Assembly (NCBI RefSeq): GCF_016903815.1
Contig: NZ_CP069973.1
DNA length: 64,000 nt
Reading direction: 5' to 3' (one strand)
From: Escherichia coli
GTDB taxonomy: Bacteria > Pseudomonadota > Gammaproteobacteria > Enterobacterales > Enterobacteriaceae
Shown: piece after piece, positions 39,601 through 42,600 of the stretch
Layout: each line of letters opens with the position of its first letter
Numbering within the stretch: the stretch's first letter is position 1
Made by a program: the position numbers

Positions 39601-42600
39601 CACCAACAATTCCGCTGTATTTTTCTTCACTCATGGCAATGCCAATGGAATACCGCGCCTGCTTTAATTTATTCATTTCGATAGAGAGTGTTTTTTCGCT
39701 CATATTCGTTTCAACCATTGCGCCGTGAATATCATAAAAGCGCGAGCAAATATCGCCAGCAACCTGGCGGGCATTCAGGTCGTCACTCTCTTCACCACCA
39801 TAAAACGCATGCCAGTTAGCGCCGTCGCGAATGGCCGGTGAGCCAATTCCCACCAGGGCGACATCCAGATTATCCCAGTAGGCAGAGATGGTTTTAAAGT
39901 GCTGAGACTGCATGATCCCATTACGAATTAATGGGTTATCCAGCAGAGCCGGAAAATCCGCGAGATGCGATTCCCCTTTCAGCTTCGCTGCCGCGCTGTA
40001 GGTTAATGTGTTTACGTGATAGCGGCTTTCGAGTTTACCGGACGGTCCGCCAATAATTGGTACGCAGATTAACTGCCGCGATTGCCCCGCCTGCGGCAAG
40101 TTTTCAACCAGTGCGCTCACCGCGCGACCCCAGGAAAAACCGACAATATCGCCAGGCTCCAGCAAGCGATCCAGCAGTTGCGCGCCGTGTAACCCCATCA
40201 TCGCCAGTTGAGTCTCTTCATCCTCATCATTTCCCGACACCACCACAACGTCTTTCAGGCCAAACTTTTGCTTCAGTTGCTGCTCCAGCCAGAGATTTTC
40301 GTTGTAGTCATAGTTGATGGCGATGGTGACAATTCCCTGATCGCGGCCTCGTTTAAGCAAGCGGCTGATGGTGGTGCGGTAAATACCCAGTTCGCGCGCG
40401 ATTTGCGCCTGCGTCATATCCTGTTCGTAATAGAGTTGGGCAATCTTCACAATCAAACGGATATCGTCACTGTTTTCCATTGCCGCCTCCTGGTTCTGCA
40501 CATTTGTGCAAATACGCTTTCTCACCGCTTGATCTGATATAACCCCATCATGATGGCCTTTCAAAGCGATTTTTCACTCTTTGCATGGGGAGAAATAGCG
40601 CTTTCTCTTGCACATTTGTTTCTCTGCCTAGTAGTCATCAGCACAGTTGTGCAGCGATTCGTAATATGTTGATTATCCTTATTTTGCCAGGCAAATTTGC
40701 ATCGTACTTCCGGAGACACTTTTGTGATAAAAGGCGTGGCAGATCACATTTAATTTCGACGTTGCCGCATAACCCTGTTTTTCCCCGCTAAGAGGTACGG
40801 TATATTCCGCGTTTTACAGGAGAATTTATGCTGCCCGACTCATCAGTCCGTTTAAATAAATACATCAGCGAAAGCGGAATTTGCTCACGCCGCGAAGCGG
40901 ATCGCTATATCGAGCAAGGCAATGTGTTCCTTAATGGCAAGCGAGCCACCATTGGCGATCAGGTGAAACCCGGCGACGTTGTGAAAGTAAACGGTCAGTT
41001 GATTGAGCCTCGGGAAGCCGAAGATTTGGTACTTATCGCCCTGAACAAGCCCGTCGGTATTGTCAGCACCACCGAAGATGGCGAGCGCGATAACATTGTC
41101 GATTTCGTTAACCACAGCAAACGCGTGTTCCCGATTGGCCGCCTGGATAAAGACTCCCAGGGGCTGATTTTCCTCACCAATCACGGCGATCTGGTGAATA
41201 AGATCCTCCGTGCGGGTAACGATCATGAGAAAGAGTATCTGGTGACGGTCGATAAACCGATTACCGATGAATTTATTCGTGGTATGGGGGCGGGGGTGCC
41301 GATCCTCGGGACGGTGACGAAAAAGTGCAAAGTCAAAAAAGAAGCGCCGTTTGTCTTCCGCATTACCCTGGTGCAGGGGCTGAACCGTCAGATCCGTCGC
41401 ATGTGCGAGCACTTTGGTTACGAAGTGAAAAAGCTGGAACGTACGCGCATCATGAACGTTAGTTTAAGCGGCATTCCGCTGGGGGAATGGCGTGATTTAA
41501 CTGACGATGAGTTAATCGACCTCTTTAAGCTCATTGAAAATTCCTCTTCCGAGGCAAAATCTAAAGCGAAGGCCAAACCGAAAACTGTAGGCATTAAACG
41601 TCCAGTCGTTAAGATGGAAAAAACGGCGGAAAAAGGCGGTCGCCCGGCGTCCAACGGTAAGCGTTTTACCTCGCCGGGGCGTAAAAAGAAGGGGCGCTAA
41701 TCAGCGCCTGCCGCGCGTCGACGTATTTGCTGACCAGCTAAATGACGCTTCAGGATCCGGTTTATAAGCCTGCTTTTTCTTTAACTGGCGGGCTTTTTTC
41801 GCTTCAGCCTCACGCTCGACCATTAATTTATCGATGTACTCTTTCTTAATGCTGTTGGTTTCGGAGTTGGTCAGTACGCGACCATGCGCAATCCGCGCCC
41901 GATCCAGCAGTGTTTTAAGTTCACGCTGCTCGCGTTCAGTCATCTCTTTTTGGGTAATACGGGGGAGTGCCATGCTGGTGCCCTCAGTGAGCCAGAGAGT
42001 TCAGTGTACGGGAATTCGTTTGCGAGCAGAACTGATAATATTCATTTTGCCTTCTCTTAACTATTTATCTCTTTCGATAATTAATTAGAGATGCAGATAA
42101 AAAAATTAAAGGCAATTATTCTCCGATAAAGACGTTGGTTAACAGAGTACAGGCTCGTTTATTGATGAGCATAGTGACAAGAAAATCAATACGGCCCGAA
42201 ATATAGCTTCCAGGCCATACAGTATTTACTCAAACAAATTACTATGCAGTTTTTGCACCACCTGCTCGGCATCTTCGCCGGGCACCAGGAAGCACAGGTT
42301 ATGGCTGGATGCGCCGTAACAAATCATGCGAATGTTGAACGGTTCCAGTACGCCGAATACCTCTTTGCCAACGCCGCAGGCTTTTGACAGGTCATTGCCA
42401 ATCAACGCGACCAGCGCCAGACCTTCCTCCACTTCTACCCGGCATAGTGCAGACAGCTCCATCAGCAGAGATTGCGTCAGCAAGGTATCGCCAGTGGAGG
42501 TTGAACCGGTGGTATCAAGGGTTAATGCCACGCTCACTTCTGACGTGGTGATTAAGTCTACCGAAATATTATGCCGCGCGAGGATGCCGAAAACTTCCGC

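What the first reader, a model, noticed from the sequence alone, without database searches (positions are those of the whole stretch)
40495..40625. Repeated motifs in the sorC upstream region, candidate SorC operators
Two copies each of GCACATTTGT and CGCTTTCTC occur within about 130 bp upstream of sorC, in different relative order (GCACATTTGTGCAAATACGCTTTCTC and AGCGCTTTCTCTTGCACATTTGTTTCTC). SorC-family regulators autoregulate through repeated operator half-sites, so these are plausible binding sites for the horizontally acquired operon.
Basis: seen in the sequence. Interest (0 to 1): 0.3.

Follow-up and report, generated by a model that had tools for sequence, protein, structure and literature searches.

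The report
Conserved SorC operator boxes upstream of sorC
One of the two repeated motifs (GCACATTTGT) belongs to a deeply conserved palindrome, TTGCAC-N4-GTGCAA, that is very probably the binding site of the sorbose regulator SorC, while the other (CGCTTTCTC) is an unconserved, probably accidental repeat; this is an ordinary though not yet experimentally mapped operator arrangement.

Summary
TGCACATTTGT occurs twice (40497-40507, 40609-40619) and CGCTTTCTC twice (40515-40523, 40599-40607), upstream of sorC, which lies on the minus strand with its ATG at 40480.

GCACATTTGT is part of a 16-bp palindromic box, TTGCAC-N4-GTGCAA.
- Box 1 (40496-40511) sits just before the ribosome-binding site and is about 99% identical across 28 aligned enterobacterial sor promoters, and K. 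pneumoniae has it too.
- Box 2 (40608-40619) is a conserved half-box.
- Box spacing is fixed at 31, 112 and 143 bp in 36 of the 37 sequences compared.

The box follows the regulator rather than the sorbose genes. All 43 loci whose regulator has the recognition helix LGIYRTTISR[LM]L carry it upstream, including four Firmicutes with unrelated neighbouring genes. None of 19 loci with other helices carry it. The box matches the core of the B. subtilis DeoR left half-operator at 12 of 16 positions.

CGCTTTCTC is not conserved outside Escherichia/Pseudocitrobacter: identity to the E. coli 9-mer is 29% and 53%, and it is absent in K. pneumoniae.

The same region also holds a conserved IHF-consensus site, a CRP-like site and a weak promoter. 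SorC binding, the transcription start and the looping model are inferred, not shown.

The parts
40496..40511 (.). SorC box 1. Minus-strand sequence is TTGCACAAATGTGCAG, with the perfect palindrome TGCACA-AA-TGTGCA. It ends 4 nt before the Shine-Dalgarno sequence and lies at about +19 to +34 of the predicted transcription start.
   Evidence: 99% mean column identity across 28 genera/species; 23 of 28 are identical. Present in K. pneumoniae and Sodalis, Kluyvera and, as GTACATTTGTGCAA next to the Shine-Dalgarno sequence, in Bacillus-type homologues.
40608..40619 (.). SorC box 2, a half-box. Minus-strand sequence is ACAAATGTGCAA. Only the ATGTGCAA half is conserved. Its centre is 112 bp from box 1, at about -86.5.
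   Evidence: 94% mean column identity; nCAAATGTGCAA in 22 of 28 sequences. Position is fixed in all non-Kluyvera enterobacterial loci.
40641..40652 (.). SorC box 3. Minus-strand sequence is GCACAACTGTGC (GCAC-N4-GTGC). Its centre is 143 bp from box 1 and 31 bp from box 2, at about -117.5.
   Evidence: The arms GCAC/GTGC are invariant or nearly so, while the central N4 varies, even within E. coli. The 143-bp distance is identical in 36 of 37 sequences and 144 bp in one.
40717..40726 (.). CACAAAAGTG, a conserved palindromic core (CAC-N4-GTG) without the TTG/GCA outer bases. It is a possible weak fourth SorC box or a site for another factor. Centre at about -192.5.
   Evidence: 97% mean column identity and fixed position. 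The binding factor was not determined.
40515..40523 (.). CGCTTTCTC copy A (GAGAAAGCG on the minus strand), 4 nt upstream of box 1's palindrome core TGCACA...TGTGCA. Judged not to be a conserved operator element.
   Evidence: 29% identity to E. coli in 23 other genera. It varies even within the Escherichia/Pseudocitrobacter clade (TAAAAAGCG, AAGAAAGCG, TAAAAAGCA) and is absent in K. pneumoniae.
40599..40607 (.). CGCTTTCTC copy B (GAGAAAGCG on the minus strand), abutting box 2. Only an A-rich pattern (AnAnAA) is shared with other genera.
   Evidence: 53% identity in other genera against a 59% background. K. pneumoniae has GATTATTCG.
40559..40564 (-). Predicted -35 hexamer TTGAAA. The preceding block AAAATnGCTTT is conserved.
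   Evidence: TT[G/T]nnn-N17-TATAnC is found at the same offset in 33 of 40 sequences compared. The strict consensus scan found no promoter, so this is a weak promoter prediction only.
40528..40544 (-). Conserved block GGTTATATCAGATCAAG containing the predicted -10 TATATC (40541-40536). The predicted start is near A40529/40530.
   Evidence: 96% mean column identity. The transcription start was not measured.
40662..40674 (-). Match to the IHF consensus, AATCAAcataTTA (WATCARNNNNTTR), preceded by an A-rich tract. Centre at about -139.
   Evidence: The invariant alignment columns coincide with the specified consensus positions. The pattern is present at the same offset in 35 of 36 non-Kluyvera loci plus the window. 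Expected 0.06 per 311 bp.
40730..40751 (-). CRP-like site AAATGTGATCTGCCACGCCTTT. The left half is perfect and the right half weak. Centre at about -211.5.
   Evidence: TGTGATC is invariant, as are C at consensus position 16 and the TTT at positions 20-22. The site travels with the operon into Sodalis, where the neighbouring gene is different.
40692..40701 (.). Conserved TGCAAnTTTG element (TGCAAATTTG in E. coli), containing a TTGCA half-site on the plus strand. Function unknown.
   Evidence: 88% mean column identity.
39533..40480 (-). sorC, the first gene of sorCDFBAME. It encodes a SorC/DeoR-subfamily regulator with recognition helix LGIYRTTISRLL. The Shine-Dalgarno sequence AGGAGG is at 40491-40486.

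Best explanation
The repeated GCACATTTGT is the core of the SorC operator, a 16-bp palindrome TTGCAC-N4-GTGCAA. It is recognised by a dimer of SorC helix-turn-helix domains in the same way that B. subtilis DeoR recognises TTGAA-N6-TTCAA.

The E. coli sor promoter carries one perfect box just downstream of the predicted transcription start and abutting the ribosome-binding site (box 1). Two further boxes lie upstream of the -35 (box 2, a half-box at about -86.5; box 3 at about -117.5).

Inferred mechanism: without sorbose, tetrameric SorC (a dimer of dimers) bridges box 1 and an upstream box. This loops out the weak promoter and represses sorC and the operon, which gives autoregulation. With inducer the dimer-dimer bridge is lost, and SorC left on the upstream boxes helps RNA polymerase, assisted by an IHF bend at about -139 and a CRP-like site further upstream.

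The second repeat, CGCTTTCTC, is a lineage-specific coincidence and not part of the operator.
For: SHOWN
1. Box 1 is 99% conserved, box 2 94% and box 3 88%. The variation in box 3 is confined to the central N4. This holds across 28 enterobacterial sor promoters whose spacers average 59%, and also in K. pneumoniae and Sodalis.
2. The box tracks the regulator, not the cargo. All 43 loci with recognition helix LGIYRTTISR[LM]L have a GCAC-N4-GTGC-type palindrome within 300 bp upstream, with almost none (0 in 41 loci, 1 each in two) in about 6.6 kb of flanks. These include Kluyvera (neighbour is a shikimate-dehydrogenase-like gene) and four Firmicutes at 43-47% identity (neighbours are a GFO/IDH/MocA oxidoreductase and an RpiA-like gene). 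None of 19 loci with other helices has it upstream.
3. The box core matches the DeoR OL core at 12 of 16 positions with the same geometry of 5-bp arms and a 6-bp spacer (PMC11229326). The two base-contacting arginines of DeoR (R34, R39) align with arginines in SorC.
4. In the Firmicutes two boxes lie 19-20 bp apart. This fits the roughly two-turn separation of the DNA-binding-domain pairs in the SorC tetramer, as described in PMC2943609.
5. Box spacing is fixed at 143, 112 and 31 bp in 36 of 37 sequences. In Kluyvera the two boxes are 101 bp apart, 42 bp (four helical turns) less.

FROM THE LITERATURE
SorC is a repressor without sorbose and an activator with it (Woehrl et al. 1990, as cited in PMC12817954). 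A switch from tetramer to dimer was proposed to explain this (PMC2943609).
Against: - There is no binding data for SorC on any DNA. In the literature I could reach, no operator is reported for SorC itself; a 2010 paper, PMC2943609, says operator sites had been identified only for DeoR and CggR.
- The transcription start is only predicted. The -10 (TATATC) lacks the usual final T, and the consensus scan found no promoter. All positions relative to +1 are therefore provisional.
- In enterobacteria no two boxes lie about two turns apart, unlike the DeoR and CggR operators, so the tetramer must loop DNA or bind differently.
- Box 2 is only a half-site.
- The distances 143 and 101 bp are not whole numbers of 10.5-bp turns; they only share the same phase.
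- The IHF and CRP assignments rest on consensus matches. The CRP-like site is unusually far from the predicted start.
Confidence: 0.75

Rival explanations
1. Both motifs together form a composite SorC operator. GCACATTTGT and CGCTTTCTC would each be half-sites contacted by SorC.
For: Both repeats are exact and adjacent to each other in E. coli. The joint occurrence of an 11-mer and a 9-mer repeat arose in 0-3 of 1000 shuffles. Both 9-mers are kept in the four E. coli strains compared.
Against: - The 9-mer is not conserved outside Escherichia/Pseudocitrobacter (29% and 53% identity) and varies within that clade.
- It is absent in K. pneumoniae.
- Its orientation and distance relative to the palindrome differ between the two copies: 4 nt upstream in one, abutting and downstream in the other.
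- Firmicute and Kluyvera loci have the boxes without it.
Confidence: 0.07
2. The palindromes are bound by another factor, for example CytR, whose half-site resembles TGCAA and which works next to CRP sites. SorC would bind elsewhere.
For: TGTGCAAT was the best-scoring CytR right-motif match in the lsr promoter study (PMC5137460). A CRP-like site and a TGCAAnTTTG element are conserved upstream.
Against: - The box follows the SorC-type recognition helix into Firmicutes and into loci with unrelated genes, and is absent where the helix differs.
- Box 1 is more than 200 bp from the CRP-like site.
- The box closely resembles the operator of the SorC homologue DeoR (PMC11229326).
Confidence: 0.05
3. 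Box 1 acts at the RNA level. It would form a hairpin in the 5' untranslated region next to the ribosome-binding site and control translation or mRNA stability.
For: Box 1 lies inside the predicted leader and abuts or overlaps the Shine-Dalgarno sequence in most genera. It folds into a 7-bp hairpin.
Against: - Folding energy is not unusual (z = -1.27; 22 of 200 shuffles fold as well).
- The sequence is invariant rather than covarying.
- Related boxes lie upstream of the promoter, where they would not be transcribed.
- No Rfam family matches.
Confidence: 0.05
4. The repeats are chance similarities in an AT-rich spacer with no function.
For: A 9-nt repeat arises in 4-21% of shuffles. Matches to GCACATTTGT with one mismatch are no more frequent in the window than expected.
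Against: An 11-nt repeat arises in only 0.1-1.4% of shuffles. The boxes are near-invariant at fixed spacing across genera while the surrounding spacers diverge.
Confidence: 0.03

Closest known systems
[quoted passage not shown]
   Same: - The regulator is homologous, with the same helix-turn-helix type DNA-binding domain. Arg34 and Arg39 of DeoR align with Arg in SorC.
- The palindrome geometry is the same: 5-bp arms TTGNA and a 6-bp spacer.
- 12 of 16 core positions are identical (TTGAACAAAATTTCAA vs TTGCACAAATGTGCAA).
- The regulator is a tetramer.
- The site lies at the promoter of a sugar or nucleoside catabolic operon.
   Different: - The fourth base of each arm differs symmetrically (A to C).
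- DeoR uses two contiguous half-operators about two turns apart within 39 bp, overlapping the -35. E. coli SorC boxes are dispersed (31, 112 and 143 bp), with one downstream of the predicted start.
- DeoR is only a repressor. SorC is reported to be both repressor and activator.
B. subtilis CggR operator of the gapA operon (SorC/CggR subfamily; PMC2943609, PMC11229326)
   Same: - The regulator gene is the first gene of the operon it controls, giving autoregulation.
- The operator lies downstream of the transcription start (+32 to +77 for CggR; about +19 to +34 for box 1).
- Binding is by a tetramer and depends on cooperativity.
   Different: - CggR has a winged-helix DNA-binding domain and a different sequence motif (CGGGAC...GTC).
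- Its two half-operators are contiguous.
- No upstream sites and no activator role are known.
Loop-forming sugar operon repressors with dispersed operators (lac O1/O3, gal OE/OI); comparison from textbook knowledge
   Same: Operators lie about 90-140 bp apart and bracket the promoter. The regulator is multimeric. Spacing is strictly conserved, which suggests a helical-phase constraint.
   Different: The protein family is unrelated. Looping at sor is inferred only from spacing conservation and the known SorC tetramer; it has not been demonstrated.
narG-type promoter architecture (far-upstream activator sites plus an IHF bend near -125); comparison from memory, not tested
   Same: An IHF-consensus site lies at about -139, between far-upstream conserved sites (-190 to -210) and the core promoter.
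   Different: The factors differ (NarL/Fnr there; putative CRP/SorC here). IHF binding at sor is only a consensus match.

Membership tests
SorC/DeoR-subfamily operator (DeoR-type palindromic half-operator) | The cognate regulator has the helix-turn-helix type DNA-binding domain of the SorC/DeoR subfamily, with conserved base-contacting arginines | tested here: met
   SorC aligns with B. subtilis DeoR (8R7Y) over residues 8-313. DeoR ISR...VSR aligns with SorC IYR...ISR. The best NCBIfam hit is DeoR of Bacillus at 215 bits, below the equivalog cut-off, so SorC is a homologue and not the same protein.
SorC/DeoR-subfamily operator (DeoR-type palindromic half-operator) | A 16-18 bp palindrome with TTGNA arms and a 6-bp A/T-rich spacer | tested here: met
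   Box 1 is TTGCA-CAAATG-TGCAg. 12 of 16 positions are identical to the DeoR OL core (PMC11229326).
SorC/DeoR-subfamily operator (DeoR-type palindromic half-operator) | Two half-operators about two helical turns apart, bound together by one tetramer | tested here: not met
   In E. coli and the other sor promoters the box centres are 31, 112 and 143 bp apart and no pair is about 20 bp apart. The feature is met in the four Firmicute homologues, at 19-20 bp.
SorC/DeoR-subfamily operator (DeoR-type palindromic half-operator) | Located at the promoter of the regulated operon, or of the regulator's own gene | tested here: met
   All boxes lie in the 311-bp spacer upstream of sorC, the first gene of sorCDFBAME. 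No other GCAC-N4-GTGC occurs in the operon.
SorC/DeoR-subfamily operator (DeoR-type palindromic half-operator) | Direct, effector-sensitive binding by the regulator (EMSA or footprint) | not testable with these tools
   No SorC-DNA binding data were found in the searchable literature. The primary paper of Woehrl et al. 1990 is not held.
   GCACATTTGT parts are 94-99% conserved. CGCTTTCTC copies show 29% and 53% identity outside the Escherichia clade and are absent in K. pneumoniae.
IHF binding site | WATCARNNNNTTR preceded by an A/T-rich tract | tested here: met
   AATCAAcataTTA at 40674-40662 follows GGCAAAATAAGGAT. The specified positions are invariant. The pattern is present in 35 of 36 non-Kluyvera loci at the same offset, against 0.06 expected by chance. 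Binding itself was not tested.
CRP binding site | TGTGA-N6-TCACA at an activating distance from the start | tested here: inconclusive
   The left half AAATGTGATCT matches 11 of 11 positions and is invariant. The right half is ACGCC in E. coli and ACACC in many genera. The centre is at about -211.5 from the predicted start, which is not a standard class I or class II position, and the start is unmeasured.

The most novel reading that the evidence does not exclude
The sor control region may be a fixed-geometry nucleoprotein switch unlike the compact two-turn operators known for this family. A SorC tetramer would loop DNA between a box in the leader (+26) and boxes at -86 and -117 to repress. On induction it would hand over to upstream-bound SorC, an IHF bend (-139) and far-upstream CRP and CAC-N4-GTG sites (-190 to -210) to activate.

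The invariant 143-bp spacing in 36 of 37 sequences, and the four-turn shorter version in Kluyvera, would then reflect a loop-phase constraint. This would give the first concrete DNA-level explanation of how the founding member of the SorC family can be both repressor and activator.
Probability: 0.35. Interest if true: 0.5.

Novelty: new member of a known kind. Interest (0 to 1): 0.3.

Why it matters
SorC gave its name to a large family of sugar-responsive regulators and has a solved structure. In the literature I could search, operators are described only for DeoR, CggR and, loosely, LsrR, not for SorC itself.

A well-supported box (TTGCAC-N4-GTGCAA), with three to four sites at fixed spacing, gives direct targets for gel-shift, footprinting and mutational tests. 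It also gives a way to test the proposed tetramer-to-dimer switch from repressor to activator. The sor operon is a marker of pathogenic E. coli lineages (PMC12817954), so knowing its control sites has some practical use.

That said, a palindromic operator for a helix-turn-helix regulator upstream of its own operon is exactly what a specialist would expect. A curated regulon database may already hold a computational prediction of this motif; I could not check that.

Tried and rejected
- **Consensus promoter/terminator scan of 40300-40900.** Nothing found. The promoter proposed here is therefore weak and rests on conservation only.
- **Rfam search of 40300-40950 at E <= 1.** No match.
- **RNA folding of the predicted leader.** A hairpin forms at box 1 but is not significant (z = -1.27). 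The RNA model was rejected as the main explanation.
- **Window-wide search for further boxes.** TTGCACAAATGTGCAA with up to 3 mismatches matches only box 1. GCAC-N4-GTGC occurs elsewhere only at 14754, consistent with chance (1.1 expected). There is no evidence of other targets in this window.
- **Literature.** No paper in the library describes a SorC operator or the sor transcription start. Woehrl et al. 1990 is not held.
- **LsrR.** I expected a similar LsrR half-site from memory. The published LsrR 'boxes' are short AT-rich fragments (AACAAT, AAGATTTAA) and do not support the comparison, so I dropped it.
- **Exact-sequence look-up of the PDB 2W48 SorC protein.** Not on record. A K. pneumoniae locus was reached through P0023 instead.
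- **Alternative reading of the conserved AnAAT at 40676-40672 as a -10 hexamer of a distal promoter.** Not excluded, but the invariant columns fit the IHF consensus better and no -35 is conserved upstream of it.
- **E. coli-specific inverted repeats of AAAGCG-type sequences (I2, I3, I5).** Not conserved in other genera, so set aside.
- **Within-E. coli comparison.** Too little divergence (98.4% identity or more) to discriminate between the two motifs.
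Full report
**Setting**

The window is E. coli. A 501-bp query around the finding matches 5425 of 5426 complete E. coli genomes. Minus-strand ORFs from 40480 down to 34767 encode the following:
- a SorC/DeoR-type regulator of 315 aa, 88% identical to K. pneumoniae SorC, PDB 2W48;
- a sorbitol-6-phosphate dehydrogenase;
- the four subunits of a mannose/sorbose-type PTS transporter;
- a zinc-dehydrogenase-like gene annotated in RefSeq as sorE.

This is sorCDFBAME. rluF starts at 40828 on the plus strand. The sorC ATG is at 40480 and its Shine-Dalgarno sequence AGGAGG is at 40491-40486. The finding therefore lies in the sorC upstream region.

The sor-specific DNA runs from about 34476 (junction with pepE) to about 40792 (junction before rluF). 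It is present in 2856-2863 of 5426 genomes.

**Observation**

Both repeats exist exactly as described. In dinucleotide-preserving shuffles, an 11-nt direct repeat is rare (1/1000 for the 131-bp stretch, 14/1000 for the whole spacer). A 9-nt repeat is not rare (43/1000 and 215/1000).

Nor did it notice a third, related palindrome at 40641-40652. The core CAC-N4-GTG occurs three times in 311 bp against 0.05 expected (P = 2e-5).

**Orthologous promoters**

One scan of species-representative genomes with the SorC protein returned 62 loci. I aligned the upstream regions of 28 enterobacterial representatives: Escherichia, Pseudocitrobacter, Citrobacter, Klebsiella, Raoultella, Enterobacter, Mangrovibacter, Cedecea, Serratia, Pantoea, Erwinia and Entomohabitans. 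The result is a clean phylogenetic footprint. Mean majority identity is 59% in the spacers. The conserved blocks, read on the minus strand, are:

| Block | Sequence | Window coordinates | Identity |
|---|---|---|---|
| Box 1 | TTGCACAAATGTGCAG | 40511-40496 | 99% |
| -10 block | GGTTATATCAGATCAAG | 40544-40528 | 96% |
| Palindromic core | CACAAAAGTG | 40726-40717 | 97% |
| Box 2 | ACAAATGTGCAA | 40619-40608 | 94% |
| Box 3 | GCACAACTGTGC | 40652-40641 | 88% |
| TGCAAnTTTG element | TGCAAATTTG | 40701-40692 | 88% |
| CRP-like site | AAATGTGATCTGCCACGCCTTT | 40751-40730 | 85% |
| IHF-consensus site | AATCAAcataTTA | 40674-40662 | 83% |
| -35 block | AAAAATCGCTTTGAAA | 40574-40559 | 82% |

All variation in box 3 falls in the central four bases.

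The two GAGAAAGCG copies (CGCTTTCTC on the plus strand) score 63% and 69% majority identity. Outside the Escherichia/Pseudocitrobacter clade they are only 29% and 53% identical to the E. coli sequence. Copy A varies even inside that clade.

I then fetched a K. pneumoniae locus and a Sodalis locus. Both keep boxes 1-3, the IHF consensus, TGTGATC and CACAAAAG. K. pneumoniae has unrelated sequence at both 9-mer positions. In Sodalis the neighbouring gene is a LysR-type regulator, not rluF, so the whole control module belongs to the sor operon.

**Who binds the box**

The box follows the regulator rather than the sorbose genes.
- All 43 loci whose regulator has the recognition helix LGIYRTTISR[LM]L carry a GCAC-N4-GTGC-type palindrome within 300 bp upstream, with almost none (0 in 41 loci, 1 each in two) in about 6.6 kb of flanking DNA.
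- None of the 19 loci with other helices has the palindrome upstream.
- The 43 include Kluyvera. There the 70%-identical regulator sits between rluF and pepE with only a shikimate-dehydrogenase-like gene.
- They also include four Firmicutes at 43-47% identity whose neighbours are a GFO/IDH/MocA oxidoreductase and an RpiA-like gene.

In the Firmicutes two boxes lie 19-20 bp apart, in two cases directly before the Shine-Dalgarno sequence.

The box also resembles the only structurally defined operator of this subfamily. The B. subtilis DeoR OL core, TTGAA-CAAAAT-TTCAA, has the same geometry as TTGCA-CAAATG-TGCAA and is identical at 12 of 16 positions (PMC11229326). The DeoR arginines reported to contact bases (R34, R39) align with arginines in SorC.

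I therefore assign the boxes to SorC with fairly high confidence. No binding experiment exists in the literature I could search. A 2010 paper states that operators in this family were known only for DeoR and CggR (PMC2943609). Neither the 2024 structural paper (PMC11229326) nor the 2025 E. coli sorbose paper (PMC12817954) gives a SorC operator.

**Architecture and likely mechanism (inferred)**

The pattern TT[G/T]nnn-N17-TATAnC occurs at a constant offset in 33 of 40 sequences compared. In E. coli it is TTGAAA (40564-40559) and TATATC (40541-40536), which predicts a start near 40529-40530. The strict consensus scan found no promoter. That is consistent with a weak, activator-dependent promoter, but the start is unmeasured.

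On this numbering the elements lie as follows:

| Element | Position relative to predicted start |
|---|---|
| Box 1 | +19 to +34 |
| Box 2 centre | -86.5 |
| Box 3 centre | -117.5 |
| IHF consensus | -139 |
| CACAAAAGTG | -192.5 |
| CRP-like site | -211.5 |

Box 3 to box 1 is 143 bp in 36 of 37 sequences and 144 bp in one. In Kluyvera the two boxes are 101 bp apart, 42 bp or four turns less.

SorC is a tetramer whose two pairs of DNA-binding domains are about two turns apart (PMC2943609). In the enterobacterial promoters no two boxes are that close. I therefore favour a loop between box 1 and an upstream box for repression and autoregulation. Release of the dimer-dimer bridge by the inducer would then leave upstream-bound SorC free to activate, as Chaix et al. 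suggested in general terms (PMC2943609). SorC's dual role as repressor and activator is taken from Woehrl et al. 1990, as cited in PMC12817954.

The IHF and CRP assignments are consensus matches whose invariant columns coincide with the specified consensus positions. They are not binding data.

**Rivals**

- A composite operator including CGCTTTCTC is contradicted by non-conservation and by the inconsistent orientation and spacing of the 9-mer relative to the palindrome.
- A different binder such as CytR is contradicted by the co-occurrence of box and recognition helix across phyla.
- An RNA hairpin at box 1 is not supported. The fold has z = -1.27, there is no covariation, and there is no Rfam match.
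- Pure chance is excluded for the boxes. It remains the best reading for the 9-mer.

**Verdict**

What is there is a set of three, possibly four, SorC boxes in a conserved, multi-factor control region. CGCTTTCTC is not an operator element. This is a new, still computational, member of a known kind of site. It is useful to people working on SorC-family regulators or on sorbose use by pathogenic E. coli, but it is not surprising.

Noticed in passing
window 40662-40674 (minus strand): A perfect match to the IHF consensus WATCARNNNNTTR (AATCAAcataTTA) follows an A-rich tract. The invariant alignment columns are exactly the specified consensus positions. It is present at the same offset in 35 of 36 non-Kluyvera sor promoters.
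   Followed up: partly
window 40730-40751 and 40717-40726: A CRP-like site with a perfect, invariant left half (AAATGTGATCT) lies 19 bp from an almost invariant palindromic core, CACAAAAGTG. Both are more than 190 bp upstream of the predicted sor start. They travel with the operon into Sodalis, Pantoea and Erwinia, where the neighbouring genes differ.
   Followed up: partly
window ~34476 to ~40792: The sor segment is a presence/absence polymorphism between pepE and rluF, present in 53% of complete E. coli genomes. sorC is next to rluF in Citrobacter, Klebsiella, Raoultella and Kluyvera as well. The locus therefore looks old and variably retained rather than a recent foreign insertion.
   Followed up: partly
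window at or before ~33640: In an identical RefSeq genome, an IS3-family (IS1397-like) transposase is annotated right next to pepE at the left edge of the stretch examined. Other sor+ strains lack it there.
   Followed up: no
L032-L034 (Kluyvera), locus positions ~2860-3000: Between rluF and pepE, Kluyvera has only a 70%-identical SorC-like regulator plus a shikimate-dehydrogenase-like gene. Its control region is short, with two perfect boxes 101 bp apart, and lacks the CRP-like, IHF and CACAAAAGTG elements.
   Followed up: partly
L038-L041 (Terrilactibacillus, Pseudalkalibacillus, Bacillus, Paenibacillus), upstream 200 bp: Regulators 43-47% identical to SorC have an identical recognition helix and tandem boxes 19-20 bp apart. 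They sit next to a GFO/IDH/MocA oxidoreductase and an RpiA-like gene instead of sorbose genes, so this is an unknown sugar pathway under a SorC-like regulator.
   Followed up: partly
L047, L048, L050, L054, L055, L061, L062 (Chloroflexi MAGs), last 60 bp before the regulator gene: Distant SorC-family homologues (helix LG[LI]SRVKVYRLL or LSLSRIKIYRLL) have the same half-site in the opposite, everted arrangement (ATGTGCAATTGCACA, or GTGCA-N2-3-TGCAC). It is often repeated about 20 bp apart, immediately downstream of a clear TTGACA-N17-TATnCT promoter.
   Followed up: no
L063 (E. coli 95-3192), sorC: RefSeq marks sorC as a pseudogene with an internal stop in this strain, although the upstream boxes are intact.
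   Followed up: no
window 40478-40495 and alignment A1 columns 320-343: Most genera have an in-frame ATG two codons upstream of the E. coli start (proteins annotated as 317 aa, starting MA/MT-MEN), with GGAG fused to box 1 as the ribosome-binding site. The E. coli clade instead has AGGAGG placed for the downstream ATG. The translation start has therefore shifted between lineages.
   Followed up: no
window 40535-40543 (plus strand): The conserved block around the predicted -10 also reads as an extended -10-like TGATATAAC on the opposite strand, pointing towards rluF. Two invariant GATC (Dam) sites lie in the conserved blocks (40531-40534 and 40742-40745).
   Followed up: no
window 40563-40604: E. 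coli-clade-specific inverted repeats of AAAGCG-containing sequence (AAAGCGATTTTTC / GAAATAGCGCTTT, and GAGAAA-N6-TTTCTC around 40590-40607) flank the predicted -35. They are not conserved in other genera.
   Followed up: partly
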